Made by a program: the position numbers and the translations under genes. From an uncultured virus (IMG/VR IMGVR_UViG_3300038443_001324) (lineage: Duplodnaviria > Heunggongvirae > Uroviricota > Caudoviricetes), in IMG/VR virus record IMGVR_UViG_3300038443_001324: DNA of 20,000 bases; one strand, 5' to 3'. Every line of letters begins with the position of its first letter. Positions within the stretch are counted from its first letter, which is position 1. The notes beneath the pieces are model-generated. The model saw only the letters and a program-made list of their open reading frames with translations, did no database searches and was not told where the DNA came from. Positions 2,058 to 20,000 of this stretch are shown one piece after another.

Positions 2058-2429
2058 TCATAGCTTGCGCGGGTTGGAGTGTTCGCAAAAGCTGCAGCGG
2101 CGCTTACCAGGGCCAATGCGGCGGCCGCACCCTTCGCATCCAATGCGATCGTTCGGCGCGCGCACGGCAATGTGCACTCGATCGACGGGCAGGTTGAGCG
2201 GCCGCTCAAACAGGCTCGAGCACCATGCGAAGCGCTCGACAAGCGGTGCGTCGATGATCTCGAAGCGCACCCGGTTCTTTCGCAGCACTTGCTCGAGCGT
2301 GGTGCCGGCCGCGTGCGCCTTCTCACCGAGCGCACACGCGAGCTCGGCCGACACGCGCAGCACGAGCAGCGGCTCTTCCCCCTCGACGGCCACCACGGCC
2401 ACGCTTTGCACTTCGGCGCGATCACTCAT
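2058..2429 (-). CDS. Hypothetical protein (123 aa) with C-terminal CxxC...CxxC
   Basis: ATGA overlap with the MTase stop; CEGC...CSFC near the C-terminus. Confidence 0.65.
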   Translation of the reverse strand: MSDRAEVQSVAVVAVEGEEPLLVLRVSAELACALGEKAHAAGTTLEQVLRKNRVRFEIIDAPLVERFAWCSSLFERPLNLPVDRVHIAVRAPNDRIGCEGCGRRIGPGKRRCSFCEHSNPRKL

Positions 2430-3175
2430 GCGGCCTTCCCTTCCAAAAGTTGCGCGTTCTCGCGAGCGATACGATCTGCGGCGATCGCGAAGTACGAGGC
2501 CTCAAGCTCGATGCCTACGAAGCGCCGGCCAGCGCGCAGCGCGGCGACGCCCGTGCTGCCCGAACCCATGCAGTTGTCGAGCACGAGATCGCCCTCGTTC
2601 GTGTAGGTGCGCACCAGGTATTCAATCAGCGCGACAGGCTTTTGCGTTGGGTGCAAGTTGCTGCGCTGCTTGTCGCTAGCGAACCTCAGGACGCTGCGCG
2701 GGTATCGCTCGGTTGAGTCGTATAGAAGTGCCGTGAACGCCTGACGCCCATACGTCCGCGTTATATCTTTCGTCTTCACCGACGACTTTCGGGCGTGGCC
2801 GAACGTCTTCTGCGGGTTGTAAGTCGGCTGGCGTTCGTAAAAGACCAGCACATTTTCGTGCGCCTTCATAGGTGCGCGCTTTGCATTCAGATGTCCAGTC
2901 GCATGCGTCTTTTCCCAAACCCACTCATACCGCAGGTTCTTTAGGTTCGACGCGCCGAGCACTTTGTCGAATGGCGTCTGAGCAGTAAGCACCACCGCGC
3001 CTTTGCAGACGCGGTCGTATTGCTTCCATAGCGCGGCAAGATCGAGCGGACAGTCCCATTTGTTGCGCGTGGTTCCATACGGCAGATCACATAGAACCAG
3101 ATCGACACTCTGATCGGGCAGCGCGGCCATGCGCTCTATGCATTCGCCGTGATGCAGGACGTAGCGATCGCTCAT
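2426..3175 (-). CDS. DNA methyltransferase, N6-adenine/N4-cytosine, beta class
   Basis: DLVLCDLPYG catalytic motif, HPTQKPVALIEYL, VLDNCMGSGSTG SAM-binding motif, FVGIEL. Confidence 0.93.
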   Translation of the reverse strand: MSDRYVLHHGECIERMAALPDQSVDLVLCDLPYGTTRNKWDCPLDLAALWKQYDRVCKGAVVLTAQTPFDKVLGASNLKNLRYEWVWEKTHATGHLNAKRAPMKAHENVLVFYERQPTYNPQKTFGHARKSSVKTKDITRTYGRQAFTALLYDSTERYPRSVLRFASDKQRSNLHPTQKPVALIEYLVRTYTNEGDLVLDNCMGSGSTGVAALRAGRRFVGIELEASYFAIAADRIARENAQLLEGKAA

Positions 3176-5671: not shown

Positions 5672-5892
5672 GCGAGTTGCTCGCCATATGGGTCGTGTAT
5701 AAGCGGCCCGCCGATTACCCGGGGCACTTCGTGGCGCGCAAGTGGCTTGTCACGCCGGAAGGATTGACCGCCACGATGGAAGCCGTGTTTGCGCCCACGC
5801 TCGGGCAAGTGCGCGCGAAGTTGCCCCCGGACCTTTACTGCTCGCCGCGCCAACCTGGCGACGAACCGCAGATCATTGAATCGTGGTTTTAA
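5668..5892 (+). CDS. Small phage hypothetical protein (74 aa)
   Basis: ATGA overlap; MSELLAIWVVYKRPADYPGHFVARKW...RQPGDEPQIIESWF. Confidence 0.7.
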   Translation: MSELLAIWVVYKRPADYPGHFVARKWLVTPEGLTATMEAVFAPTLGQVRAKLPPDLYCSPRQPGDEPQIIESWF

Positions 5893-5915
5893 AACAACAT
5901 CTGACCTATATCAAA

Positions 5916-8024
5916 ATGCCATCAAATCACCCGAAAGAAACCGTTGAACAGATCGTCTATATCCCCCTGAATGAGCTGCATATCTCGCCGCTCAACCAGC
6001 GGCGTAACGACACCTCAAGCGTCGCCGAGCTGCGCGCGCTAATCCGCTCGCAGGGGCTGCTGCAGAATCTGATCGTGGTGCCCGAAGCAGACGGCGGCTG
6101 GGGCGTCGTGGGCGGCGGCCGCCGTATGCGCGCAATGCAGGAAGAGGCGAGCGATGGGCACTTTGCGGCCGACCATCCGGTGCCGTGCATCATCGCCACG
6201 CCAGCCACGGCGCCCGCCATGAGCCTTGCGGAAAACAGCGGCCGCGAGCCGATGAACCCGGCGCAGGAATTTCGCGCGTTCGCCGAGCTGCACAAGCAGG
6301 GCAAGCCCGTCGAGGATATCGCGGCGCAATTTGGCGTCTCGCCGATCGTGGTGCGCCGGCGCCTGGCGCTCTCGAATGTTCACCCGACGCTGATCAAAGC
6401 GTACGAAGCGGGCGAAATGAACCTCGAAACGCTGCAGGCTTTCACGCTGGCCAGCTCCCATAAGCAGCAGCTCGCGGCATGGCAGTCGGTGCCGCAGTAT
6501 CAGCGCGGCGCGCACTGGATCCGCCAGGCGCTTACGAAGGGGCAAAAAGACGCGCGGCACGACCGGGCCAGCCAATTCGTGGGGCTTGCCGCGTATGAGG
6601 CCGCCGGGGGCGCGGTGGTGCGCGACCTCTTTGGCGGGGAAAACAGCGGCTATATCGGCGATGCCATGCTGATGCAAAAGCTCGCCGCGGAAAAGCTCGA
6701 GGCCGAAGCAGACAAGGTGCGCGCCGAGGGCTGGGCGTTCGTGGACGTGCACCCCGAGCTCGAATGGAAGCATACCGATCGATTCGGGCGCAGTAAGCCG
6801 GCCACGCGCGAGCTCACCGCCGACGAGCAGGCCGAAATCAGCGCGCTCGAGGCCGAGATCGAAACGCTCAACGCGCAGCTGCACGACGACGAGGAAGAGT
6901 TCACCGATGGCGACGCGGAAACGATCGAGGACGAAATTGGCCGCCGGCAAGCGCGCATCGAAACGATCCGCGCCGCGACGTCGACCTATACCGATCGCCA
7001 GAAGAAAAAGGCCGGCGTAGTGATGGGCATCGGCCACGGCGGCCGCCTCGAGATCCACCGCGGCATGATCCGGCCCGTCGATCCGAAAGAGGCGAAGAAA
7101 AAGGAACTGGCCAAGGCCAAAGCGGCAGCTGAAGCGGCCGGCGAGGCGGCGCCTATGGGCCTAAGCGAAGCGCTTACGCGCAAGCTCACGGCCCACCGCA
7201 GCGCGGCGCTCGCAGCGCACCTGCTCGAGTGCCCGCGCGTGGCGCTCGATCTGCTCGCGGCGAACATGGCCATGCAGGTGCTCTATAACGGCGGCTACTA
7301 CGGCGCGGCCGGCGTGCACGTCCAGGCGCATAAACAGATGGGAACGCTAATCTCGGCCGGCCCTGACGTCGAAGAGAGCAAAGCCTATAAGGCGATCGAC
7401 GAGCAACGCGATGCCCTGCTCGATCTGCTGCCCGAGGATCCGAAGACGCTTTTCGTGTGGCTGGGCGAGCAGAACATCATGACCGTGGTCGAGATCCTGT
7501 GTTTCTGCACGGCCGCGACGCTCAATGCCGTGGTGGGCAACCAGCACAGCAAGCCGCTCGAGCAGCTCGAGGGCACGATTGGGTTGAATATGGCCGATTG
7601 GTGGCAGCCCACGCGCAAGTCGTTCCTCGATCAAGTGCCCAAGCAGGTGATCCTGGACGCGCTCAAAGAAGTGGGCTTCGATGACGCGGCGATCGCCACG
7701 GCCGAGAAGCTTAAAAAGTCCGATCTCGCAGCCTACGCCGAGGAAGCGCTCGCCGACTCGGGCTGGGTGCCGGCGCCGATCCGCGGGAAGGCCTCGCCGA
7801 TCGTTGCCGAGGCGCGCAAGCCGAAGGCGAAGGCCGCAACGCGCAAGCCCGTGACGAGCTCCGCGAAAAAGCCCGTGACGAACTCGGCAAAGCCCCCGGT
7901 CAAAAGCTCGATGCGCAAGCGCAAGGGTGAAATGGAGAACGCGCCGCCTGAAAAGGGCTCGATGGCCGATCAGTTTCACAAGCTGAATCCGGCCGCCGCG
8001 TGGCCCTTCCCAATCAACAAGTGA
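5916..8024 (+). CDS. Large ParB/RepB/Spo0J-family protein (plasmid/ICE-type, about 700 aa)
   Basis: N-terminal ParB domain (IPLNELHISPLNQR, GLLQNLIV, VGGGRRMRAM, SLAENSGREPM), HTH (VEDIAAQFGVSPIVVRRRLAL), YEAAGG.V.RDLF, NMADWWQPT..SFL; start 5916 or 5883. Confidence 0.88.
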   Translation: MPSNHPKETVEQIVYIPLNELHISPLNQRRNDTSSVAELRALIRSQGLLQNLIVVPEADGGWGVVGGGRRMRAMQEEASDGHFAADHPVPCIIATPATAPAMSLAENSGREPMNPAQEFRAFAELHKQGKPVEDIAAQFGVSPIVVRRRLALSNVHPTLIKAYEAGEMNLETLQAFTLASSHKQQLAAWQSVPQYQRGAHWIRQALTKGQKDARHDRASQFVGLAAYEAAGGAVVRDLFGGENSGYIGDAMLMQKLAAEKLEAEADKVRAEGWAFVDVHPELEWKHTDRFGRSKPATRELTADEQAEISALEAEIETLNAQLHDDEEEFTDGDAETIEDEIGRRQARIETIRAATSTYTDRQKKKAGVVMGIGHGGRLEIHRGMIRPVDPKEAKKKELAKAKAAAEAAGEAAPMGLSEALTRKLTAHRSAALAAHLLECPRVALDLLAANMAMQVLYNGGYYGAAGVHVQAHKQMGTLISAGPDVEESKAYKAIDEQRDALLDLLPEDPKTLFVWLGEQNIMTVVEILCFCTAATLNAVVGNQHSKPLEQLEGTIGLNMADWWQPTRKSFLDQVPKQVILDALKEVGFDDAAIATAEKLKKSDLAAYAEEALADSGWVPAPIRGKASPIVAEARKPKAKAATRKPVTSSAKKPVTNSAKPPVKSSMRKRKGEMENAPPEKGSMADQFHKLNPAAAWPFPINK
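7845..7910 (+). repeat. 24-bp-period repeat encoding KPVTSSAK/KPVTNSAK/PPVKSS
   Basis: AAGCCCGTGACGA occurs at 7845 and 7869, with a degenerate third copy. Confidence 0.6.
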
Positions 8025-11551: not shown

Positions 11552-12919
11552 TTAAGCGGTGGCCTTAGCGCGCGAGCGCTTCGGTTTCGGAGCTGGGGGG
11601 GCAGAAGAGGTAAGGACGGCGTCGGGCTTTCGCTCGGCGAGGATCTCGGTGAAGGTGCGGCCGTCCCTTTCGAGGATTGCATTTTGCCCGGTGAAGGCCT
11701 GCCAGCGCAACACGATCGCGTCGACGAACTTCGGGTCGAGCTCCATGAGGTAGGCCGTGCGCCCCGTCTGCTCGCAGCCGATCATCGTCGAGCCGGATCC
11801 TCCGAACAGATCTAGCACGGCGTCGCCCGCCTTGCTGCTGTTCTCGATCGCGCGGCGCACGAGCTCGACAGGCTTTTGCGTGGGGTGCACATAATCGCGT
11901 TCGCGGTCGACGTTCCACACGGTCGATTGATCGCGGCCGCCATACCAGGCCGCGCGGCCGCCACTCGAGTAAATGCACGGCTCATGCTTGGCGCGGTAGT
12001 CGCCAAAGCCCCCGCCCATTTGGTTTTTCACCCAAATGATGTGCGACGAGAGCTTGCGCTCGACCATGTTGAGCGCCTTGATGAACTCGGCCGTTGTCAT
12101 GTCGGCGTGCCATACGTACCACGGCGCCGCGGGCTTGAGAGCGGGCACGGCGCTCGAGAACGCTTCGTACAGGAAGTCGACGAGGCCATCGCCCTCGAGC
12201 TTGTCGTTCTTGATGCCTTCCCATTCCTTATGTCCACCCTTGTATGCCACGCCGTAGGGCGGATCTGTGTGCAGCAGATCGGCGCGCGTGCCAGCCATCA
12301 AGCGGTCCACTTCATCGGTCATCGTTGAATCGCCGCACAAGAGGCGGTGCCGCCCGAGTATCCAGAGATCACCCGCCATCGAGACGGGATCGTTCGGGAT
12401 ATTGGGCACCTGATCCTCGTCGATTTTGCCGGCCACCGTCTCGGGCGCGAGGATCTCGGCGAGCTGCTCGCCAAAGCCAAGCAGATCGAGCTCGAAGCCG
12501 AGCTCGGCGAGCGCGTCGAGCTCGAGCTTGAGCAGGTTGTAATCCCAGCCGGCGAGGGTGGCGAGCTGGTTGTCGGCGATCACATAGGCGCGCTGCTCGA
12601 CGGGAGAGAGGTGCGAGAGATCGATGGTCGGCACGCGCGAACCATCGCACATGCGAATGCTTTGGCCGGCCTTGAACATGTCGAGCGCACCGATGATGCG
12701 CCCATGGCCCGCGATGATGCCTTTGTTGCCGTCGAGTAGGACGGGGTTCGTGAAGCCGAATTCTTCGAAGCTGCGTTTAATCGCAGCGATTTGATCGGCG
12801 CTATGCGTGCGCGAATTGCTCGCGTACGGCTCGAGCTCGGCCGCCTCGCGGTAGACGATCTGCAGGCCTGCGAAGGCCGGGTCGCTGCCCGCAATGATCG
12901 GCTCGTTCTTTTTTGCCAT
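11552..12919 (-). CDS. ParB-N-terminal-domain / N6-N4 DNA methyltransferase fusion
   Basis: PYASNSRTHS..QI...FGFTNPVL...IAGHGR...YVIADN (ParB-like); TDPPYGV, HPTQKPVEL, DLFGGSGST, MELDPKFVD (MTase). Confidence 0.92.
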   Translation of the reverse strand: MAKKNEPIIAGSDPAFAGLQIVYREAAELEPYASNSRTHSADQIAAIKRSFEEFGFTNPVLLDGNKGIIAGHGRIIGALDMFKAGQSIRMCDGSRVPTIDLSHLSPVEQRAYVIADNQLATLAGWDYNLLKLELDALAELGFELDLLGFGEQLAEILAPETVAGKIDEDQVPNIPNDPVSMAGDLWILGRHRLLCGDSTMTDEVDRLMAGTRADLLHTDPPYGVAYKGGHKEWEGIKNDKLEGDGLVDFLYEAFSSAVPALKPAAPWYVWHADMTTAEFIKALNMVERKLSSHIIWVKNQMGGGFGDYRAKHEPCIYSSGGRAAWYGGRDQSTVWNVDRERDYVHPTQKPVELVRRAIENSSKAGDAVLDLFGGSGSTMIGCEQTGRTAYLMELDPKFVDAIVLRWQAFTGQNAILERDGRTFTEILAERKPDAVLTSSAPPAPKPKRSRAKATA

Positions 12920-13355
12920 TCAATTTCTCGCCATTGTGATAGTAACGGCGAGATATTAGCGCATTGCGCGCCATTTGCAGCACGCGAGCATGGCGCAAGC
13001 GAAGCATGGCCACGAGCGGAGCGAAAAAGCGCACAGGATCGGCCGGCGCGCCGGCGAGCTCGAGCTGCTCAGTGAGCGCCTCGACGCGGCGATGGCAGCG
13101 CGTGCAAAGCACCATTCGGTTTCGCGCACGGTTATCGCGCGTGAGCCGGTAGGGAATCAGGTGGTGATTTTCGAGGTTGCGGGTGTACTGGCAACCGGGC
13201 AATAGGAGGGAGCAGAACGGCTGGCGCATCCGATCGGCCGACGAAATCGCCTTCCAACCAGGTCCGCGATCCCGAGGGTCGCCCCTCGAAATCGCGTACG
13301 CACCCGGCACAACTCTGATTACTCCGAGGGCTTGTGATCGCATTGGATCGGCCAT
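12801..13355 (-). CDS. HNH endonuclease
   Basis: RGPGWKAIS..R.RQPFC....GC...ENHHLIPY...DNRARNRMVLCTRCH; 3' end overlaps the MTase start by 119 bp. Confidence 0.75.
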   Translation of the reverse strand: MADPMRSQALGVIRVVPGAYAISRGDPRDRGPGWKAISSADRMRQPFCSLLLPGCQYTRNLENHHLIPYRLTRDNRARNRMVLCTRCHRRVEALTEQLELAGAPADPVRFFAPLVAMLRLRHARVLQMARNALISRRYYHNGEKLNGKKERADHCGQRPGLRRPADRLPRGGRARAVREQFAHA

Positions 13356-13454
13356 CGAGCACTGAAGAGCCGCCAGTGTAACGTTTTCGCGTGGCCGTGG
13401 GACGAATGATTCGCACCTAAAACACCACTAATCGCGCTTTTTGCTAAAAAAGAG

Positions 13455-13482
13455 TTGCAATTTATCACGCCGGTGATAGTGT
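13455..13482 (+). promoter_or_regulatory. Promoter TTGCAA-16-TAGTGT overlapping perfect palindrome TATCAC-GCCG-GTGATA
   Basis: Palindrome at 13463-13478 occupies the spacer; upstream A-tract. Confidence 0.7.
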
Positions 13483-13554
13483 CTCGACCACGGCATCGTT
13501 AGATGCTGTAACAACGGCGCGAAAAGCGCACCACAAAATATCAAGAGGAAAAAA

Positions 13555-13902
13555 GTGCAGACCATCGAACACACCGCAGTAGCGCGCCGGCTTGTGCGCG
13601 CCAGCGCACGCAGTGTCCCGCAGCGCGAAAGAGCGCCAGCGCGCGCGGCTATCCATGCCCTCGCGGGCCTTATGGCCTTCACAGAACGGGAGTGGTTCAT
13701 TGCAGTTTTCTCGTTCGCTGCCGGTGTGATCGTTGTCATTTTGTTTCTTGGAGACGCTTACTATGCTGCCCCTCACGCTCAAGACGTTGCTCAATCCCGC
13801 GGCGCGATCGCTTCAACCCAAGGCCCCGGCCGCACGGGCACCGAGCGCTTCGGCTACGCCCATCGCCCGCGCTTCCATCAAACCGCCTATGAACGCAGCT
13901 GA
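13555..13902 (+). CDS. Hypothetical membrane protein (115 aa)
   Basis: GAGG RBS, GTG start, TM segment WFIAVFSFAAGVIVVILFL. Confidence 0.65.
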   Translation: MQTIEHTAVARRLVRASARSVPQRERAPARAAIHALAGLMAFTEREWFIAVFSFAAGVIVVILFLGDAYYAAPHAQDVAQSRGAIASTQGPGRTGTERFGYAHRPRFHQTAYERS

Positions 13903-14200
13903 ACGCGCCTTCTACGCGAATCCGGCGATGGAGAAGCGCCGGCGCGACATGATCGCAATGCTGGGCGATCGCTGGATGGGCCACGGCCGTCATGCGCCGC
14001 CCAAGGGCGATTACACGCAGCTGCCGCCTGAGAAGCAGGCCGAGCTCAAAGGATGGATCTGTGCGGCCGAGCACCTCGAGCAGACGGCCGACGCGATCGG
14101 CGGCAATGCGGGCGATGCGTTCCGTGCGTCAGCTACTCGGCTGCGCGTGCGGGCCCGTGATCTGTTCGCGCATGGGATCGGCGGCACACATGCGCAATAG
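13889..14200 (+). CDS. Hypothetical protein (103 aa)
   Basis: Probable start MNAAERAFY at 13889; tiles with its neighbours. Confidence 0.6.
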   Translation: MNAAERAFYANPAMEKRRRDMIAMLGDRWMGHGRHAPPKGDYTQLPPEKQAELKGWICAAEHLEQTADAIGGNAGDAFRASATRLRVRARDLFAHGIGGTHAQ

Positions 14201-14711
14201 CAGGCTCGCAATCGCTACGCGCGCCCAGCACCAGCGGCGCGCGCAGATCGAGCGGCAGGCACGCGCGCTTGCCTATACCGAGATGCGCGCCCGCGCGAAA
14301 GCCCAAAAGCGCCCGATGCCCGATAGCCAAATCGTCGAGATTGCGCTCGCTGCGCACATGGCGATTGCATCGATGAGCGGCAGCTGCGCCGATGACGATC
14401 ACTGGCACGTGCTCGCGTGCGCGATGAATTACACGCTCGTGCTGTGCGAGCTTGGCATCGGCGCCGACGATATCGAGATTGCACAGCACGCGCTCGGCGC
14501 GCTCGTCTCGGCTCAGGACCGACGCGAGCGCCTCGGTCGTTGGGGTTTCACCGGCGACGAGCTCACCGATATCCGCGTCGCTGTTGAGCTGCACACGCGC
14601 CAGCTGGAAACGGCCACGCGCGAGCAGTTGACCACCGCACAAACCACCATTCATAGGCGCCTCGCAGCGGGCGATCACTACAAGCGACAACCCGAACAAG
14701 AGGCAGCATGA
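14190..14711 (+). CDS. Betaproteobacterial phage helical protein (173 aa)
   Basis: AHMAIASM..G....WHVLACAMNY...LCELGIG...R..R.GRWGFTGDEL...HTRQL pattern. Confidence 0.75.
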   Translation: MRNSRLAIATRAQHQRRAQIERQARALAYTEMRARAKAQKRPMPDSQIVEIALAAHMAIASMSGSCADDDHWHVLACAMNYTLVLCELGIGADDIEIAQHALGALVSAQDRRERLGRWGFTGDELTDIRVAVELHTRQLETATREQLTTAQTTIHRRLAAGDHYKRQPEQEAA

Positions 14712-15421
14712 GCAAGTACCGCCCTAGCCCCGCTGTATATCTCGGCAATACCCTGTTTGCGACGATTCTCGGCGCGCCACACACCGAGTTGCTCGACCTC
14801 GAAATCGCTACTGAGCACGATATCGAAGTCGAGCTCGTGCACCGCACGCTCGACCGCTACGTGTCGAGCGAGTGGCTCACGGTAACGCTCAAGCCCAACC
14901 CCATGCGGCCCACGCAAATGCTGCGGCTGTATGCGGTTTCGCAGGGCTACCACGAGCGCAAGCTGCAGCCGCCGGAAGCGCCAAGGCGGCAGGCAGAAGC
15001 GCCGCTCAGGGCGCCCAAGCGCGATCGCGCAGCGACCGTCGATGCGGTGTTGCCCCCAATGTTGAAAGCTACCCCTTCAGAAGCCGTCCCTTCAGAGCCG
15101 CCCCTTGTCGAACCTCCCCCGCCCGTAATCGCGCCTGCGGCCAAGCCCGCGGCGAACTCAGAGGAAATCAAAATGCCCCGTGGTGTTTACCAGCGCAACA
15201 AGAGCGCGACGCAAGACAAAAACGGCAGCGCCTTCTCGTGCGCGATGTTTGACGATGACCGGCTGCTGATTCGCGCTGGCGGGAAATCGATCGAGCTCGA
15301 GCCGGGCGATACCGAGCGCCTCGCAGCGTATTTGCGGCGCATTGGGCGTCTGCATGACTTCGCCCTCACCGAGCTTGCGTCGACCGGCGTGGATATCGAT
15401 CGCGCGCACCAGCCCGCATGA
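14708..15421 (+). CDS. Hypothetical protein with Pro-rich linker (237 aa)
   Basis: ATGA overlap; two globular-looking parts separated by a P/E/A-rich linker. Confidence 0.7.
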   Translation: MSKYRPSPAVYLGNTLFATILGAPHTELLDLEIATEHDIEVELVHRTLDRYVSSEWLTVTLKPNPMRPTQMLRLYAVSQGYHERKLQPPEAPRRQAEAPLRAPKRDRAATVDAVLPPMLKATPSEAVPSEPPLVEPPPPVIAPAAKPAANSEEIKMPRGVYQRNKSATQDKNGSAFSCAMFDDDRLLIRAGGKSIELEPGDTERLAAYLRRIGRLHDFALTELASTGVDIDRAHQPA

Positions 15422-15546
15422 AATCGAAATTGAAACGCCATCGCTCCGATATCTTTTTGATCGTGCTTTGCCTAGCCACGCTCACATACTCCTATACGCG
15501 CGCGCCCAGCGCACGGCCGGCTACGGTATGCCGTGGCGATCGGTGA
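15418..15546 (+). CDS. 42-aa membrane/secreted peptide
   Basis: ATGA overlap; MKSKLKRHRSDIFLIVLCLATLTYSYTRAPSARPATVCRGDR. Confidence 0.45.
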   Translation: MKSKLKRHRSDIFLIVLCLATLTYSYTRAPSARPATVCRGDR

Positions 15547-15569
15547 GCTTTTGCAGGAGGTAAACGAGG

Positions 15570-15758
15570 ATGCGATGCCCGGATTGCAACAGTAAGACGC
15601 GCGTGCTCGAGTCGCTGGCCGCCGGCCCCCGCGGCGAGGTGCGCCGCCGGCGCGCCTGCGTGGCCAAAGAATGCGGCAAGCGATTCAGCACGCTCGAGGT
15701 GCCCATCACCGGGCACACGCCGACGAACCCCCTAGAGATTGCGAAGCAACCGCGCTAG
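15570..15758 (+). CDS. Stand-alone NrdR-like zinc-ribbon protein
   Basis: MRCPDC..TRVLES.....VRRRRAC..CGKRFSTLE; strong AGGAGG/GAGG RBS; no ATP-cone. Confidence 0.8.
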   Translation: MRCPDCNSKTRVLESLAAGPRGEVRRRRACVAKECGKRFSTLEVPITGHTPTNPLEIAKQPR

Positions 15759-15791
15759 TCATTACGAAGCGCATACCTACGTCGTGTTTTT

Positions 15792-15856
15792 TATCACAGG
15801 CGTAACAAAATACTTGCATAAGGCGTGGGACGGACGATATGGTCTGCCCACGCCTT
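15792..15856 (+). promoter_or_regulatory. Operator TATCAC-AGGC-GTAACA plus promoter TTGCAT-18-TATGGT within an inverted repeat
   Basis: Operator 15792-15807; -35 at 15814; -10 at 15838; arms AAGGCGTGGG/CCCACGCCTT. Confidence 0.6.
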
Positions 15857-15893
15857 TCGTTTTGGGGCGCGTCGAAAACAAAGGGAACTTACA

Positions 15894-16217
15894 ATGACCA
15901 ACCGCATACCCCTTGCGGCCTTCGTGGTGCTGCTCGTGGCGGCTTCGGCCCGCGCTGACGAAACCACAATCATCAACGCAAAGCCGGGGCAAGAAATTGT
16001 TATTCAGATCAAGCGCGATGAAACAGAGCAAGCCGCAGATCTCGTGCAGGACATTCTGAATGAAAACTTTGCGGCGGCACTCAGCCACGGCGCAACGCTG
16101 CACAATCAGCTCATGTACAACGGCAGCGTCTACCCGGGCCCGCAAAATGGCACCGTACTGGACACTGCGCCGTTGACCGACATGGAAAACCGCGACGTCA
16201 TGAAGCGCACGCACTGA
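15894..16217 (+). CDS. Secreted/periplasmic hypothetical protein (107 aa)
   Basis: AAGGGA RBS; signal peptide [23 protein letters not shown]. Confidence 0.72.
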
Positions 16218-16252
16218 TACCCCCTTCATCTCCACCATTACAAGGAAAAACC

Positions 16253-16858
16253 ATGTGGATCATGCTTAACAACGCGTTTCTCTCGATCGTGGACAAGGCC
16301 AGCCGGCCCGATCACTTGATGGTGCGCGCTCGCCGAAAGGGTGATATCGAGGCCGTTTTCCCGGGTTATATCGCCCTGATCAACGTCGGCACCGACTATG
16401 CCTTTCGCGCCGAGATCCCGCGCAGCCTTGTTGCCATGACGATCGCCACGCAGATCACCGGCATCGATTACGCGAACTTCAAAGGCAGCGTGAAGGATGA
16501 CGCGCGCCACGATGCCTACATGGGTGTATGGAATGTGATGATGGACTACCAGCGCGGCTACTACGATCGGCGCACGCGCGCCGCTTTTCAGCGCCGCAGC
16601 CCGCGGCCGGCAGCAATCCAGTACGACGAGTTGGCCGCCCCCGAGGTGAAAGCGAGCAGCACCGGCGCCACGGCACCGGACGCGCTCTACGAAAAAGCCG
16701 TCGAGGTTGTGAAATCGAGCGGCCGTGCGTCTATCTCGCTCGTGCAGCGGCACCTACGCATCGGCTACGGCCGTGCGGCCGGGCTGCTCGAGCAGATGGA
16801 GAAAGCAGGGGTCGTATCGCCAATGCGAGCGAACGGGGCGCGCGAAGTGCTCGCGTGA
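16253..16858 (+). CDS. Phage hypothetical domain fused to C-terminal FtsK gamma (winged-helix) domain
   Basis: AAGGA RBS; C-terminus [11 protein letters not shown]...[39 protein letters not shown] is the FtsK-gamma signature; no motor domain. Confidence 0.88.
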
Positions 16859-16880
16859 AACACACTTGATCGAAATAGAG

Positions 16881-16912
16881 CCCCGCTATAGCGCAATGCC
16901 GGCGGGGATTTT
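16881..16912 (+). terminator. Possible terminator CCCCGC...GCGGGG-ATTTT
   Basis: Hairpin with a large loop followed by a T-run, just after the FtsK-gamma gene. Confidence 0.4.
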
Positions 16913-17170
16913 CGCTGGATTATGCGCGATTGTTTCACGGATTTTTAGCCGCCTCGCGCCGGCATCGTTGCCCCTCAAGCCAACCCGTTCCGCCTTTACG
17001 CGCAAATCGGGGGCGACGTGTCAAACGATACGATTCTGTAACGTTCCCCCGCCACAACAATCCTGAACGGTTTACAGGCCCTACAGCGGGCCCGCGCGAA
17101 TTTATGCTGCCATGGCATTCGGCTCACCCAGCCAAGGGCGGGGCGGGCCGATTCGCCCCATAGATGCCGA

Positions 17171-18334
17171 TTAACTCCCGCCACCTAGCCCGTGAGTTTG
17201 CGACTTCAAATTAGCGAGGGTGGCTTTGAACGCATCCGAGGGGGCGCTTTTTGGCGGTGCTTCTGCGCGCGGAACGGTCGCCGGCACTGGCATCGGGGGC
17301 TCTGCCACGTAGCCAAAGAGCTTGCGCAGGTGATCGGCGTAGCCGTGCGCGTTATCGCGCATTGCCTTGTCGAGCTCGGCTTGGCGCCACGGCCCCTCAC
17401 CAGCGGCCAAGATAACGCGCAGCCTAAAGGCGTGATGCGTTTCGTTGTGCCCACGGCCAGCGATGCCGAGCGAGGCCGCCTTCGAATCGTAGCCGGGGGC
17501 GCTCTTCCACCAATCGAGCGGCACGTCTGAGGCCTCGGGGATTTCTTCATCCTCCCAGCGGCCAGCGGTGAGCCAGCCTTCGGCCATCTTGATCTTTTCG
17601 CGCTCGAGGCTCTTTACCTCTTTCGCGTAGCGCTGCGCGCCGGCGAGCAAGGTGGCGATCGCATCGGCCCGCTTGCCGCCGATTAACTTCACGGCAGCTT
17701 TCCAACGCTTGAATGCAACGAGCTTGCCTTGCTTGCGAGGGTAGGCATCCCAAAACGCGAGGAACTCGGCCGAGTAGATTTCTTTGCTCGCATCGCCTTC
17801 CCCCTCGGCCTTCGCCGGCGCAGCCGGTGAAGAAGGGGGTTGTAAACCTTCTAACTCAGTACTTGCTTCAAATTCATTGTTTACTAGGTGCGGATTAGCC
17901 GGCGACGGTTCAACCGGCGACGGCTTCACCGGCGACGGAAAATCCGGCGATGGTGAAGTGAAGTTAAATTCGGCTTTGCCGCGAAGCTCTTTCAAGCGGT
18001 TTGTGCGCGGTTTTGTAGGCACTTCGGACACGAAATAGTCGTATCCGTCCATGTGGCCGGCGGCGGTTTGGCGGGGTTTTTCAGACCTCGTGAGGTAGCC
18101 CGCCTCGCCGAGTTCGGCAAGAATGGCCTTCACGCCATCACGCCCGAGCTGGCCGCGTATGGCGAACTGCGTTTCGTTCACAAGGTGTTTGACGGATACC
18201 TGCCAGCCGTCAGGTTTGCCGAGTAGAAAGATCAGCATGCCACGCGCGGCCCATGAGAGGCGCTCGTCTTCACTGATCTGCTTGTCGACCGTGTAAAAGC
18301 TGGTTTCTGGACGTGGTCCGCGGATGATAGCCAT
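17171..18334 (-). CDS. Phage replication initiator protein
   Basis: N-terminal wHTH (DERLSWAARGML.FLL.KPDGWQ...ELGEAGYL), FWDAYPRKQGK...GWLTAGRWEDE domain, internal iterons. Confidence 0.8.
   Translation of the reverse strand: MAIIRGPRPETSFYTVDKQISEDERLSWAARGMLIFLLGKPDGWQVSVKHLVNETQFAIRGQLGRDGVKAILAELGEAGYLTRSEKPRQTAAGHMDGYDYFVSEVPTKPRTNRLKELRGKAEFNFTSPSPDFPSPVKPSPVEPSPANPHLVNNEFEASTELEGLQPPSSPAAPAKAEGEGDASKEIYSAEFLAFWDAYPRKQGKLVAFKRWKAAVKLIGGKRADAIATLLAGAQRYAKEVKSLEREKIKMAEGWLTAGRWEDEEIPEASDVPLDWWKSAPGYDSKAASLGIAGRGHNETHHAFRLRVILAAGEGPWRQAELDKAMRDNAHGYADHLRKLFGYVAEPPMPVPATVPRAEAPPKSAPSDAFKATLANLKSQTHGLGGGS
17840..17953. repeat. Putative replication origin: four 15-bp-period iterons CCGGCGAYGG plus adjacent AT-rich tract
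   Basis: Copies at 17899, 17914, 17929 and 17944; AT-rich 17840-17895; lambda-O-like layout inside the initiator gene. Confidence 0.7.
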
Positions 18335-18465
18335 CAGCGCACCCCGCCATGCAAAGCGGTTGCGTTCTTGTAGGACATTTCGCCCCTATCTTTTTTGTAC
18401 AGCAGCACTTTTTTTGCCCCGAAACTAGTACCCGCGCGCAGCCATGGCGCACGAGCAGCCGATGT

Positions 18466-18837
18466 CTAGACCTCTTCGATCGCGATGCCATGCAAGGCCA
18501 TCACGAGCTTCATTTTCAAGCGATAGACAGGTAGCTTCCGGGTCGCGTCACTTTTCACATCTTCTGTGATCGAGACGTTCCGCTCGAGGCAGCGGTATTG
18601 GAAGTCGGCGATGTAGGTGCAGATCTTAACGTCGTTTACGCGGCAATCAATAGGTACTTGCAAACGTAGGTCAGCAATCTTTCCTGCACTTTCTAGGATT
18701 CGCAGCTCTCCGTAGCGTCGAGCCTCCTTTGCGGAGTCGAATTTCCTGCCTGCTACGTAAGTCACAGTGTTTTTATACTTCCTACGTTTGGCCGGCTTGG
18801 CTGCTGCAACTTGTTGTAAATATTCTGCTGCCTTCAT
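18466..18837 (-). CDS. DUF1064-family PD-(D/E)xK nuclease
   Basis: KYKN......FDSAKEARRY..L...G.I.DLRLQV...TYIADFQY...EDVKS...YRLK.KL; true start MKAAEY at 18837. Confidence 0.85.
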   Translation of the reverse strand: MKAAEYLQQVAAAKPAKRRKYKNTVTYVAGRKFDSAKEARRYGELRILESAGKIADLRLQVPIDCRVNDVKICTYIADFQYRCLERNVSITEDVKSDATRKLPVYRLKMKLVMALHGIAIEEV

Positions 18838-18843
18838 GCGATT

Positions 18844-18958
18844 TGTTCCCGTTGTGACAACGGGTGAATCGTACACGCTGCACGGCGACATAGCGATTGA
18901 CGATGTGATCATTTTCGTGAGCGTCTGACTTGCACTTTTATCACCAGGGGTACATAGT
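18844..18958. promoter_or_regulatory. Divergent control region: two operator-like palindromes and promoter TTGCAC-17-CATAGT
   Basis: TGTTCC-CGTT-GTGACA at 18844, TATCAC-CAGG-GGTACA at 18939; -35 at 18930, -10 at 18953. Confidence 0.68.
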
Positions 18959-18990
18959 CCGGTCACCCAAACAACAAAAGAGGTGGTCGG

Positions 18991-20000
18991 ATGCCCAATA
19001 TCACGGTGGCCAACGAGGCCGAATGGCACACGCTGCGCGAGCAGCACATTGGCGGCTCGGAGGTAGCGAGCCTGTTCTATGAGTGGCTGCTGCCCACGGG
19101 CGAGGTAGTGGTGCGCCATATGTACGAGCCGTTCGGGGAAGAGGACGAGCTGCTTGGCTGCCTCGGATCGTTCCGCACCGGGTACCGCCTCTTTCACGAA
19201 AAGAGCGGGCTGCTGGTGCCCGAGGATTTCGGGGACAGCGATCGAGTGCAGGCGGGCAAGTTCCTCGAGCCGGCGATCGCCGCATGGGCAAAAGCGCGCT
19301 GGGAGTGGGAAGGGCTTCAAAAGGTGCGCCGCTACATGACGCACGACACGGTGCCGGGCTGGGGCGCTTCGCTCGATTACGAGGTGAACCGGCAAGGGCG
19401 GCCGCCGGTTGAGCTCAAGAACGTCGATTACGGGATCTTCCGCGACAAGTGGGCGCTGGACCCGGATACGGACGAAATCGTGCGTATGCCGTTGCAGTAT
19501 CAGCTGCAGCTGCAATGCCAGATCGGGCCATGCAATGCCGACCACGGCTACATCGTGGCCTGCGTGGCCGGCAACAAGCTGTACCGCGGCCGCGTCGAGC
19601 GCCACGAGCCCACGCAGCAGCGCATTGGCGAGGCGATCGCCGCATTTTGGGCGGGCGTGGCCGAGGGCGTGGTGCCCGCGATCTATGCCGACATGGATAC
19701 CGTAAAAGAGTCGCTCGCCACCGGTATCAAAGAGCGCACGGTCGAGCACCGAGGCGAGCCCGAGCTTGACGGCCTGATTCGCCGTTATGTGCGCTGGGAT
19801 AAGGCCATCAAGAACATGAGCAAGCGCCTGGACAACATGAAGGCGCGGATCTGCGCGAATTTCACCGACGAGAGCACGGTGCTGCTCACCGACGAGCACC
19901 GCCTTTCGTGGCCGAGCTATACGCGCCCGGCCGGCATGAGCGAACCGAAGTACGTCGAAGAAAAGACCTGGCGCATGCGGCTCACGGTGAGCAAGCCGCA
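18991..20000 (+). CDS. YqaJ/lambda-exonuclease-family recombination nuclease (runs off window)
   Basis: Not in ORF track. GAGGT RBS; MPNITVANEAEWHTLREQHIGGSEVASL...G.FLEPAI...GASLDY...VELKNV...PLQYQLQLQCQ...IAAFW. Confidence 0.9.
   Translation, partial: MPNITVANEAEWHTLREQHIGGSEVASLFYEWLLPTGEVVVRHMYEPFGEEDELLGCLGSFRTGYRLFHEKSGLLVPEDFGDSDRVQAGKFLEPAIAAWAKARWEWEGLQKVRRYMTHDTVPGWGASLDYEVNRQGRPPVELKNVDYGIFRDKWALDPDTDEIVRMPLQYQLQLQCQIGPCNADHGYIVACVAGNKLYRGRVERHEPTQQRIGEAIAAFWAGVAEGVVPAIYADMDTVKESLATGIKERTVEHRGEPELDGLIRRYVRWDKAIKNMSKRLDNMKARICANFTDESTVLLTDEHRLSWPSYTRPAGMSEPKYVEEKTWRMRLTVSKP

What the first reader, a model, noticed from the sequence alone, without database searches (positions are those of the whole stretch)
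16253..16858. Phage protein carrying an isolated FtsK-gamma domain fused to an uncharacterised N-terminal domain
Seen: the last ~60 aa match the FtsK gamma winged helix ([17 protein letters not shown]), joined by an A/P/S linker to a ~105-aa domain (MWI....FLSIV..LMVRAR...TDY.FRA...IDYANFK...AY..VW) that I recall as a stand-alone phage hypothetical protein. Known: FtsK-gamma binds KOPS (GGGNAGGG) and activates XerD at dif; TLC phage uses XafT to activate XerD independently of FtsK. Inference: this may be a phage-encoded XerCD activator for integration or dimer resolution, a KOPS-targeting module, or a dominant-negative inhibitor of host chromosome segregation. It appears to be co-transcribed with a secreted protein from an operator-linked promoter.
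Basis: partly seen in the sequence, partly recalled or inferred. Interest (0 to 1): 0.75.

Follow-up and report, generated by a model that had tools for sequence, protein, structure and literature searches.

The report
Phage dimer protein with altered FtsK-gamma tail
An uncultivated soil phage carries a real gene that joins a widespread, unstudied phage domain to a copy of the bacterial FtsK "gamma" DNA-reading domain, and that copy has lost the residues that normally read the chromosome's guide sequences, so its role is unclear.

Summary
ORF 16253-16858 (+) encodes 201 aa, and residues 143-200 match Pfam FtsK_gamma (E 7e-24). Residues 1-105 belong to a large phage family with no annotation: 2,951 clusters and no Pfam, PHROG, NCBIfam or PDB match. 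This domain is predicted to fold confidently (pLDDT 98) and to form a homodimer (score 0.89, best control 0.00).

The fusion occurs only in this phage lineage, in three contigs plus two independent metagenome contigs. In the syntenic sister phage the same gene ends in a lysine/arginine-rich patch instead of gamma.

The gamma copy is most like betaproteobacterial FtsK (76-78% identity). It has Gly at the positions of E. coli N1296 and R1300, two of the three KOPS-reading residues. N1296 is Asn in all 71 viral gamma cores and in every cellular gamma I compared. Five of the six XerD-contact residues are kept, including R1289.

A complete relative has no integrase and no dif-like site. That argues against Xer-dependent integration, and the lost residues argue against KOPS targeting.

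My best reading (0.35) is a dimeric early protein whose C-terminal DNA anchor was swapped for a gamma domain that can no longer read KOPS. An XerD-directed modulator remains possible (0.25). This scan has found other phage gamma fusions on other DNA.

The parts
16253..16858 (+). Whole ORF, 201 aa including the stop codon: N-domain, linker and FtsK-gamma
   Evidence: bridged by independent contigs
16253..16567 (+). N-terminal domain, residues 1-105, of an unannotated phage family. Invariant residues are M1 W2 S11 R25 R27 D48 R52 N75 K77. Predicted alpha/beta fold and predicted homodimer.
   Evidence: no match
16568..16678 (+). Linker, residues 106-142, rich in basic and A/P/S residues. It shares the 'ELAAP' stretch with the sister-phage orthologue P0002 just before the point where the tails diverge.
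   Evidence: (pLDDT 58-70)
16679..16855 (+). FtsK-gamma winged helix, residues 143-201
16769..16771 (+). Codon GGC = Gly173, at the position of E. coli FtsK N1296, which contacts both KOPS and XerD
16781..16783 (+). Codon GGG = Gly177, at the position of E. coli FtsK R1300, a KOPS-reading residue
16742..16768 (+). Codons for VQRHLRIGY. This is the helix2-loop-helix3 stretch that holds XerD contacts Q1288, R1289, R1292, I1293 and G1294, all kept.
16242..16246 (+). AAGGA ribosome-binding site, 6 nt before the ATG
   Evidence: read directly
15894..16217 (+). Upstream 107-aa ORF with a signal-peptide-like N-terminus. It is absent from the sister phage, which has a different ORF in this slot.
   Evidence: an RNA-library contig covers 15866-16030
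15820..15856 (.). Perfect 10-nt inverted repeat with a 17-nt spacer, upstream of the 107-aa ORF; a possible operator or hairpin
16877..16912 (+). GC-rich hairpin followed by a short U-run, after the stop codon. It could be a weak terminator, but it is not significant against shuffles.
   Evidence: z -1.39; not found by the strict scan

Best explanation
The gene encodes an early-region protein of an uncultivated, probably non-integrating ~65-kb rhizosphere phage, built from two modules. The N-terminal ~105 aa is a conserved scaffold or effector of unknown biochemical function that is predicted to dimerise. It occurs in thousands of phage lineages with very variable C-terminal tails. In this lineage the short lysine/arginine-rich end of the tail was replaced by a winged-helix FtsK-gamma domain captured from a betaproteobacterial-type ftsK. 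After capture, the two base-reading residues N1296 and R1300 became glycine. The module can therefore no longer read KOPS, but it keeps the arginines of the helix2-helix3 loop. I infer that gamma does the job of the lost basic patch: it is a low-specificity DNA anchor that holds the dimer, with two anchors per particle, on DNA near the phage's replication and recombination functions. Shown here: the domain identities, the tail swap at an orthologous locus, and the loss of KOPS-reading residues that are otherwise invariant. The homodimer is predicted, not shown. Inferred: that the tail binds DNA, that binding is not sequence-specific, and what the N-domain does.
For: Orthologous swap:
- Window and sister phage L003 are collinear from the ParB-methylase gene to the replication initiator.
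- Nucleotide similarity in the gene stops at 16584 and resumes at 17137.
- The L003 orthologue (154 aa) ends in a K/R-rich patch, and so do the five closest relatives P0002-P0006.
- P0001 and P0002 still share 'ELAAP' just before the divergence.

Tails in the wider family:
- Strongly basic C-terminal 15-mers (net charge >= +4) occur in 64 of 212 family members.
- The same holds for 11% of 1,036 control ORFs from the same loci.

Gamma domain:
- It is a DNA-binding winged helix by homology.
- It keeps R1289, R1292 and R1297.
- It has about the same net charge as cellular gammas (read).
- Asn-1296 is replaced by Gly, against 71/71 viral cores, 19/19 cellular fragments and 15/15 further loci that keep Asn.
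- R1300 is Gly in 0 of the 71 viral cores.
- The R1300A mutant is defective in KOPS recognition (PMC2680272, passages).

The gene is maintained:
- dN/dS of gamma against cellular gammas is 0.10-0.24, like cell-to-cell pairs at 0.16.
- Two variant contigs show 10 variable sites in the ORF, 7 of them at third codon positions, and none in the gamma-coding 180 nt.

Dimer and context:
- The N-domain homodimer scores ipSAE 0.89 in each of three runs, with a best control of 0.00 and partner pLDDT 91. The tool's calibration reached this mark for 20 of 30 known homo-pairs and 1 of 23 monomers.
- Other phage gamma domains sit at the C-terminus of recombination or replication proteins: phi297 next to RecT, Vibrio phage K242 on an exonuclease, and 56 of 71 viral cores within 25 aa of a C-terminus.
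Against: - No DNA binding was measured.
- Replacing N1296 and R1300 by glycine removes DNA contacts, one of them a positive charge. That is odd for a module selected to hold DNA.
- Tails in the family are not uniformly basic: 31 of 212 are acidic at the end. The tail may therefore be a variable targeting module rather than a DNA anchor.
- No tail of 16 longer family members gave a significant DNA-binding Pfam hit.
- The residues that are kept (Q1288, R1289, R1292, I1293, G1294) are exactly those that contact XerD, so their retention fits the XerD rival equally well.
- dS is saturated, so the low dN/dS mostly reflects history before capture.
Confidence: 0.35

Rival explanations
1. XerD-directed host mimic. 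The dimer presents two gamma modules that no longer bind KOPS DNA but still dock on XerD. They would either switch on XerCD-dif recombination away from the septum, giving chromosome dimers and catenanes and so disturbing segregation and division, or compete with FtsK for XerD.
For: - Five of the six gamma residues that contact XerD in 5DCF are identical here (Q1288, R1289, R1292, I1293, G1294). They include R1289, whose mutation has the largest effect (PMC5052618, sections 5, 6 and Table 1).
- The 9-residue peptide that suffices for activation, RQFRIGYNR, corresponds to RHLRIGYGR here.
- Isolated gamma activates XerCD-dif without the motor and gives topologically complex products (PMC3130261, passages).
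- R1300A loses KOPS recognition but fully supports Xer recombination.
- XerD and KOPS use the same gamma surface, so loss of DNA reading could free gamma for XerD.
- The known phage Xer activators XafT and XafV are described as HTH proteins and were modelled as dimers in that preprint (bioRxiv 10.64898/2026.06.12.731946, passages). The N-domain is predicted to be dimeric, and a synapse holds two XerD.
Against: - N1296 is itself an XerD contact (hydrogen bond to E119, van der Waals contact to H257) and is lost.
- No benefit of Xer activation is evident for a phage whose complete relative lacks any recombinase and any dif-like site.
- The sister orthologue carries a basic patch in the same place, and that patch cannot mimic gamma.
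- The host and its XerD are unknown.
Confidence: 0.25
2. Adaptor to an unknown partner. The N-domain family uses interchangeable C-terminal tails to reach different host or phage targets. Here a remodelled gamma surface binds something other than KOPS or XerD.
For: - Tails are extremely diverse: basic, acidic, Cys-rich, DUF7662, and a NUDIX fusion cluster.
- Both glycine substitutions lie on gamma's single interaction surface.
- The N-domain is linked elsewhere to NUDIX, ADP-ribosyltransferase and DUF4942-methylase genes rather than to recombination genes.
Against: No candidate partner was identified. Glycines remove interaction potential rather than create it.
Confidence: 0.15
3. A neutral or decaying appendage. 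A piece of ftsK was captured by illegitimate recombination and is being lost; the glycines mark relaxed constraint.
For: The fusion is confined to one narrow lineage (one 90% cluster with 3 members). Two otherwise invariant or near-invariant residues are lost.
Against: - The HMM score is still 83.7 bits, with no frameshift or stop.
- The fold is predicted confidently.
- No variable site falls in the 180 gamma-coding nucleotides in two divergent contigs, while 10 sites vary in the rest of the ORF.
- dN/dS is 0.10-0.24.
Confidence: 0.12
4. KOPS-targeting module, or Xer-dependent integration or dimer-resolution factor (IMEX-like). These are the first reader's other options.
For: Gamma is the KOPS reader and XerD activator in FtsK. 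In other phage gamma fusions the DNA-binding residues are conserved (PMC8190038, passages).
Against: - N1296 and R1300 are glycine.
- KOPS motifs number 3 in 20 kb against 1.57 expected, and 39 of 200 shuffles reach 3.
- There is no dif-like pattern in the window (0 matches with up to 3 mismatches; the one 11-mer hit with 2 mismatches is at chance level).
- There is none in G001 or in the complete relative G002.
- The pattern was a recalled E. coli-type consensus and could miss a divergent site. The phage's own remaining ~46 kb was not available.
Confidence: 0.05

Closest known systems
FtsK gamma subdomain of E. coli and P. aeruginosa FtsK (PDB 2J5P, 2J5O, 2VE8/2VE9, 5DCF)
   Same: Full-length, ungapped homology over about 60 residues (E 1.6e-16 to 7e-13). 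Same predicted three-helix winged fold. Q1288, R1289, R1292, I1293, G1294, R1297, E1303 and E1306 are kept.
   Different: It is not attached to an FtsK alpha/beta motor, and the protein ends right after the wing. N1296 and R1300 are glycine, which was seen in none of the other gamma domains compared. It sits on a dimeric phage domain.
Other phage proteins with an FtsK_gamma domain: TerS-gamma of Bacillus phages Sam46/Sam112 (PMC8190038), phi297 gp12-like, Vibrio phage 'FtsK gamma domain protein' and exonuclease-gamma, and the GapR-gamma fusions found earlier by this scan
   Same: A host-derived gamma is appended by a linker to a phage protein, usually at the C-terminus (56 of 71 viral cores), often among replication and recombination genes. 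The role is stated as unknown in print (passages).
   Different: The fusion partner, the unannotated N-domain, is different and occurs in one lineage only. The others keep Asn-1296 (71/71) and mostly R1300 (64/71); this one does not.
Xer activation factors XafT (TLC phage) and XafV (VGJ phage)
   Same: Small phage-encoded proteins with a helix-turn-helix, modelled as dimers in the preprint, that could act on XerCD independently of FtsK (passages).
   Different: There is no sequence relationship (only FtsK_gamma is found by Pfam). XafT and XafV sit beside an attP on integrating elements that exploit Xer. Here there is no dif-like site, the phage type is non-integrating, and activity is untested.
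Engineered isolated gamma, gamma trimers and XerC-gamma / XerD-gamma fusions (Grainge 2011, PMC3130261; Nolivos 2012, PMC3384302)
   Same: Gamma separated from the motor and presented in more than one copy through flexible linkers.
   Different: Those constructs use wild-type gamma, and covalent trimers bind KOPS (passages). The natural protein is predicted to be dimeric and has lost its KOPS-reading residues.

Membership tests
FtsK_gamma domain (Pfam PF09397) | Profile match above the curated cut-off | tested here: met
   83.7 bits against a cut-off of 30.6, E 7.1e-24, profile positions 4-61 of 63
FtsK_gamma domain (Pfam PF09397) | Three-helix winged-helix fold | tested here: met
   The AlphaFold model of residues 126-201 has H21-31, H36-43, H47-60 and a beta wing, with pLDDT 85-92 over the core. 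This is a prediction only.
FtsK_gamma domain (Pfam PF09397) | KOPS-reading residues N1296, R1300 and E1303 (E. coli numbering) | tested here: not met
   The residues here are G, G and E (for numbering; for the residues). Asn-1296 is kept in 71/71 viral cores, 19/19 cellular fragments and 15/15 further loci.
FtsK_gamma domain (Pfam PF09397) | XerD-contact residues Q1288, R1289, R1292, I1293, G1294 and N1296 | tested here: inconclusive
   Five of six are identical and N1296 is Gly. Binding itself was not tested.
FtsK/SpoIIIE DNA translocase | Alpha/beta RecA-type ATPase motor (PF01580) upstream of gamma | tested here: not met
   Only FtsK_gamma is found in the 201-aa protein. The NCBIfam FtsK model matches residues 137-201 only, at 54 bits against a cut-off of 1566.
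Xer activation factors (XafT/XafV) | Sequence or fold relationship to XafT/XafV | tested here: not met
   No Pfam family other than FtsK_gamma. The fold searches list no such protein, which is weak evidence.
Xer activation factors (XafT/XafV) | Encoded beside a dif-like attP on an element that integrates by XerCD | tested here: not met
   No dif-like pattern in the window or in relatives. The pattern was a recalled consensus, and the rest of this phage's genome was not available.
Xer activation factors (XafT/XafV) | Activates XerC or XerD catalysis | not testable with these tools
   This needs a recombination assay.
Unannotated phage N-domain family (no name) | Conserved core with invariant M1 W2 S11 R25 R27 D48 R52 N75 K77 | tested here: met
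   All nine are present in the query; alignment of 71 sequences.
Unannotated phage N-domain family (no name) | Stand-alone ~105-160 aa protein with a short variable tail | tested here: not met
   The query is 201 aa with a folded C-terminal domain. 0 of 35 longer members scanned carry FtsK_gamma, and only the query's own cluster covers both domains among the 120 listed hits.

The most novel reading that the evidence does not exclude
A non-integrating phage has turned a stolen FtsK-gamma into a natural separation-of-function variant. It can no longer read KOPS DNA, it is still able to dock on XerD, and it is displayed in two copies on a dimeric scaffold that matches the two XerD of a dif synapse. 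The phage would use it to fire or jam host XerCD-dif recombination away from the septum as a host-takeover device. This would be the first gamma-derived Xer modulator encoded by a virus.
Probability: 0.22. Interest if true: 0.75.

Novelty: new variant of a known kind. Interest (0 to 1): 0.45.

Why it matters
Phage genes that carry an FtsK-gamma domain are common, but their role is stated as unknown in print (PMC8190038, passages). This one is an informative outlier. It is the only gamma among more than 100 compared here that has lost the otherwise invariant Asn-1296 and also R1300, while it keeps the loop that activates XerD. A simple pair of assays, DNA binding and XerD binding or activation, would show which of gamma's two textbook activities a virus has kept.

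The work also brings to light a very large phage protein family: 2,951 clusters at 50% identity, no entry in Pfam, PHROGs or NCBIfam, no solved fold found, and a predicted dimer. In other phages this family is linked by gene order and by fusion to NUDIX hydrolases, and it sits beside giant virion-size proteins and ADP-ribosyltransferases. That gives a starting point for working out what it does.

Tried and rejected
- Megablast of window 13000-20000 against phage genomes found no match. TerL is at most 32% identical to any isolate, so no characterised relative exists.
- For the N-domain, Pfam, PHROGs, NCBIfam and PADLOC gave nothing. The profile against PDB sequences gave a best E of 0.11.
- Foldseek against PDB gave a best E of 0.21. 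Type III secretion chaperones such as CesT, SchA, SycN/YscB, SpcS and SycH recur among the top rows, but TM is 0.17-0.35 and I read the strand order as different.
- VIA-align against 48,161 chains gave a best Z of 3.9, to RNA polymerase alpha/RBP11-like dimerisation domains. BFVD returned only unnamed relatives. None of these is strong enough to name a fold.
- The search for longer fused forms (353-2000 aa) of the N-domain found none (weak evidence).
- The genome-contig scan found 16 loci, all gamma-only, and no prophage with the fusion. The patterns were exact 8-mers, so reach was short.
- A lenient Pfam scan of 16 long-tailed family members gave only DUF7662 (significant), a zinc ribbon at E 0.0098 and an EarA-like match at E 0.2. 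There is no solid DNA-binding domain.
- The consensus promoter scan of 15300-17300 found 0 sites, and the only terminator-like site is on the other strand. The hairpin after the stop codon is not better than shuffles.
- The first full-length AlphaFold run modelled gamma poorly (pLDDT 41-74) because the gamma rows were misaligned. It was repeated on gamma alone.
- My first greedy ORF picker lost the target gene in GC-rich loci. I replaced it with all-against-all clustering.
- R1280-to-Gly looked special against six comparators, but Gly occurs there in 11 of 71 viral gammas, so I dropped it from the argument.
- Lowe 2008 and Sivanathan 2006, which hold the gamma-KOPS contact lists, are not held. 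Nolivos 2012 marks the residues only in a figure.
- The RNA library X5 has one 165-nt contig over 15866-16030 and none over the target gene, which says nothing about its expression.
Full report
WHAT IS THERE

The ORF at 16253-16858 (+) is exactly as described: 201 aa, an ATG start, and an AAGGA ribosome-binding site 6 nt upstream. GC by codon position is 0.63/0.47/0.79, the pattern expected of a real gene in this 62% GC sequence. Pfam finds a single family, FtsK_gamma, at residues 143-200 (E 7.1e-24; 83.7 bits against a cut-off of 30.6). HMMER against PDB sequences aligns residues 140-201 without gaps to P. aeruginosa and E. coli FtsK-gamma (2ve8 E 1.6e-16; 5dcf, the XerD-gamma fusion, E 2.2e-13). 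An AlphaFold model of residues 126-201 gives the three helices and the wing, with pLDDT about 91 over the core.

THE SETTING

The window is phage DNA. It holds:
- a large terminase, two N6/N4 DNA methylases (one fused to ParB_N), a 713-aa ParB-like protein, an endolysin and an HNH protein;
- and, around the target, an NrdR-like zinc-ribbon protein (15570-15758), a 107-aa protein with a signal-peptide-like N-terminus (15894-16217), a convergent replication-initiation protein (17171-18334, minus strand), a DUF1064 Holliday-junction-resolvase-like protein and a RecE/YqaJ-like exonuclease.

No isolate is close. Megablast finds nothing and TerL is at most 32% identical to any phage record. The window's own assembly is not held. 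The nearest held records are a 24.8-kb fragment, G001, and a sister phage, G002 (64,942 bp, CheckV 100%), which is collinear with the window across this region. G002 has no tyrosine integrase, no serine recombinase, no FtsK_gamma anywhere and no dif-like pattern. The lineage therefore looks non-integrating. Runs that hold the stretch are rhizosphere metagenomes.

THE N-TERMINAL DOMAIN

Residues 1-105 match nothing in Pfam, PHROGs, NCBIfam or PADLOC. Yet they belong to a very large family.
- An exhaustive HMMER search of 1.84 billion representatives gives 2,951 clusters at E<=1e-3 and 1,096 at E<=1e-10.
- In the 150 listed hits the domain nearly always starts at residue 1 and the proteins are 105-281 aa long.
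- In an alignment of 71 members, M1, W2, S11, R25, R27, D48, R52, N75 and K77 are invariant.
- AlphaFold models the domain at pLDDT about 98 as beta-beta-beta-alpha-beta-alpha-alpha-alpha.
- No solved structure resembles it convincingly: Foldseek best E 0.21, VIA-align best Z 3.9 over 48,161 chains, profile against PDB sequences best E 0.11. BFVD and the ESM Atlas return only unnamed relatives.
- Two copies are predicted to form a symmetric dimer. The score is 0.89 in each of three runs, the best of three controls is 0.00, partner pLDDT is 91, and the runs agree in at least 95% of contacts. In the tool's calibration, 20 of 30 known homo-pairs and 1 of 23 monomers reached the mark. My own alignment was used, so those counts hold only roughly.
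- The interface includes the invariant N-terminal MWI strand, which would explain why the family always starts at 'MW'. This is a prediction, not a measurement.

HOW RARE THE FUSION IS

Among the best 120 of 236 homologues of 110-352 aa, only the query's own cluster covers both halves. One hundred are N-domain only and 19 are gamma only. None of 35 longer N-domain proteins scanned carries FtsK_gamma; one has DUF7662. No form of 353-2000 aa was found (weak evidence). No phage record (0 of 160 with at least 80% coverage) and no genome contig (16 loci, all gamma only) has the fusion.

The fusion is nevertheless real. Its 90% cluster has three members from three contigs (66,511, 66,727 and 7,980 nt), which differ at H21Y, V45A and T137A. 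Contigs from two further studies bridge the whole gene: X3 (61,316 nt, 10 differences in 1,301 nt) and X4 (4,301 nt). The two variant contigs show 10 variable sites in the ORF. By my reading of the frame, seven are at third codon positions. None lies in the last 198 nt of the ORF (16662-16858), which include the gamma-coding part.

HOW THE FUSION AROSE

In sister phage L003/G002 the orthologous gene sits in the same slot, between the zinc-ribbon gene and the convergent replication gene. Nucleotide similarity runs through 16253-16584, stops, and resumes at 17137. That orthologue is 154 aa and ends in a lysine/arginine-rich patch. The five closest relatives (P0002-P0006, 59-74% identical) all end in basic residues, and P0002 still shares 'ELAAP' with the query just before the tails diverge. 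Gamma therefore replaced a short basic C-terminal patch.

Across 212 family members, 64 have a strongly basic last 15 residues, against 11% of 1,036 control ORFs. But 31 are acidic, and others are Cys-rich or longer. The tail is best described as variable, with basic ends being the most common type.

WHERE GAMMA CAME FROM, AND WHAT IS ODD ABOUT IT

The closest gammas are C-termini of betaproteobacterial-type FtsK: 71-78% identity to 19 metagenomic fragments, and 76% to a Nitrosomonadales MAG and to an uncultured betaproteobacterium. The DNA is also 73-79% identical.

Numbering follows E. coli FtsK. Keller 2016 gives residues 1289-1297 as RQFRIGYNR (PMC5052618, section 6), and one search aligns that stretch to RHLRIGYGR here. 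On this numbering the query has Gly at N1296 and Gly at R1300, and it keeps E1303 and E1306.
- N1296, R1300 and E1303 are the residues implicated in KOPS recognition, and the triple alanine mutant abolishes it (PMC2533119, passages).
- R1300A alone is defective in KOPS recognition yet fully supports XerCD-dif recombination (PMC2680272, passages).
- Asn-1296 is present in 19 of 19 cellular fragments, in 15 of 15 further loci including five phage records, in both PDB sequences, and in 71 of 71 distinct gamma cores from 80 viral contigs.
- At position 1300 those 71 cores have Arg in 64 and Gly in none.
- That viral sample was retrieved with two peptide patterns typical of this gamma subtype, so it is biased towards close relatives.

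The query is thus the only gamma I saw that lacks these residues. Position 1280, which I first thought special, is Gly in 11 of the 71 cores and is not informative.

The XerD side: Table 1 of Keller 2016 lists Q1288, R1289, R1292, I1293, G1294 and N1296 as the gamma residues that contact XerD, with R1289 the most important in recombination assays. Five of the six are identical here, and N1296 is the exception. The same paper stresses that XerD and KOPS DNA use the same gamma surface and cannot bind together.

IS GAMMA STILL UNDER SELECTION?

Over 56 codons, dN/dS between the phage gamma and cellular gammas is 0.10-0.24, similar to cellular pairs at like distance (0.16). But dS is saturated, so this mostly reflects history before capture. 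The absence of any variable site in gamma among the variant contigs argues against decay, although the sample is small.

- KOPS targeting is unlikely. The reading residues are gone, and the motif occurs 3 times in 20 kb against 1.57 expected, with 39 of 200 shuffles reaching 3.
- Xer-dependent integration or dimer resolution finds no support. A dif-like pattern gives 0 matches in the window with up to 3 mismatches. The XerD-arm 11-mer gives one match with 2 mismatches, at chance level. There are 0 matches in G001 and G002. The pattern is a consensus I recalled, not one taken from the unknown host, and about 46 kb of this phage was not available to me.
- An XerD-directed activator or decoy is not excluded. 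Isolated gamma is enough to activate XerCD-dif and gives catenated or knotted products (PMC3130261, passages). The known phage activators XafT and XafV are HTH proteins that were modelled as dimers in the preprint (bioRxiv 10.64898/2026.06.12.731946, passages).

WHAT I THINK IT IS

I put most weight (0.35) on the simplest reading of the orthologous tail swap. The protein is a dimeric early protein that needs a C-terminal nucleic-acid anchor. In this lineage the anchor is a captured gamma that has lost sequence reading. That would keep it from being drawn to host KOPS sites while leaving the loop arginines and a basic linker (net +4) for backbone contacts.

The main weakness is that glycines at two DNA-facing positions are not what one expects of a module selected to hold DNA, and the retained residues are also exactly the XerD contacts. 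The XerD-mimic reading therefore gets 0.25. An unknown-partner adaptor gets 0.15, a neutral appendage 0.12, and KOPS or IMEX functions 0.05.

What the N-domain does is unknown. The only functional lead is its genomic company elsewhere (see below).

CO-TRANSCRIPTION CLAIM

The 107-aa upstream ORF ends 35 nt before the target, on the same strand. The sister phage has a different ORF in that slot. A perfect 10-nt inverted repeat with a 17-nt spacer lies at 15820-15856. The consensus scan finds no sigma-70-type promoter and no terminator on this strand, and the hairpin after the stop codon is not significant. One contig from an RNA library covers 15866-16030 only. Co-transcription is plausible but not shown.

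COMPARISON WITH WHAT IS KNOWN

Gamma domains in phage proteins are known, but their roles are called unclear in print (PMC8190038, passages). In phi297 the gamma protein lies between RecT and a Rad50-like protein. In Vibrio phage K242 gamma ends a recombination exonuclease. In an Achromobacter phage it ends a 386-aa 'DNA translocase'. This scan has already reported other gamma fusions on other DNA, for example a prophage GapR-gamma protein (unchecked notes). I found no paper on the N-domain or on this fusion. The literature searches were made, none of which was aimed at the N-domain, which has no name to search by.

I class the finding as a new variant of a known kind: a phage gamma fusion with a new partner and an altered reading head.

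Noticed in passing
L007, L009, L026, L058 (IMG/VR loci), immediately upstream of the N-domain gene; Atlas cluster: In other phages the N-domain gene is linked to a NUDIX protein. One single-linkage cluster of upstream same-strand ORFs is present in 40 of 81 loci. 4 of 6 exemplars scanned have a NUDIX domain. The ESM Atlas also holds a 279-aa N-domain plus NUDIX fusion cluster with 98 members. The complete sister phage G002 has its only NUDIX domain inside a 1,341-aa open frame about 38 kb away.
   Followed up: partly
L007:40-3924, L059:183-4616, L009:65-4474; L039:3459-5891, L040:6349-9642; L007:6351-7997, L038:6003-7667: The same neighbourhoods hold giant 1,200-1,500-aa proteins with no Pfam hit upstream. 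Downstream they hold either ADP-ribosyltransferase (ADPrib_exo_Tox) proteins of 811-1,098 aa or DUF4942-methyltransferase proteins of about 550 aa. This looks like a conserved host-takeover or anti-restriction module of ~90-kb phages.
   Followed up: partly
window 16722-16776: Short metagenome contigs (41-175 nt) from three runs match only this 40-50-nt stretch at 90% or more and then run on into cellular-type ftsK sequence. The most conserved part of gamma is therefore nearly identical at the DNA level between the phage and co-occurring bacteria (tables 7 and 8).
   Followed up: no
L109, L111, L114, L117, L120, L130, L132, L135, L137, L143, L158: In about 11 of the 80 viral gamma loci the open frame that holds gamma continues into a conserved C-terminal region ('...ERFYREWS...LPLPF...'). 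In these, gamma is internal or N-terminal to a larger protein that I did not identify.
   Followed up: no
window 15570-15758: A 62-aa protein made up only of an NrdR-like zinc ribbon (PF22811, E 3.7e-12) is conserved in the sister phage just upstream of the variable slot.
   Followed up: no
window 5883-8024 and 11552-12919: There are two ParB_N-domain proteins: a 713-aa protein of phrog_7783 (unknown function) and a ParB-N6/N4 methylase fusion. A third stand-alone methylase lies at 2426-3175. This is a heavy investment in DNA modification for one phage.
   Followed up: no
P0137, P0168, P0258 (and by eye P0219): A short motif 'GP-x-[HQ]-R-x-P', preceded by an aromatic residue, recurs near the C-terminus of a few N-domain family tails. 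It may be a linear motif for a partner.
   Followed up: no
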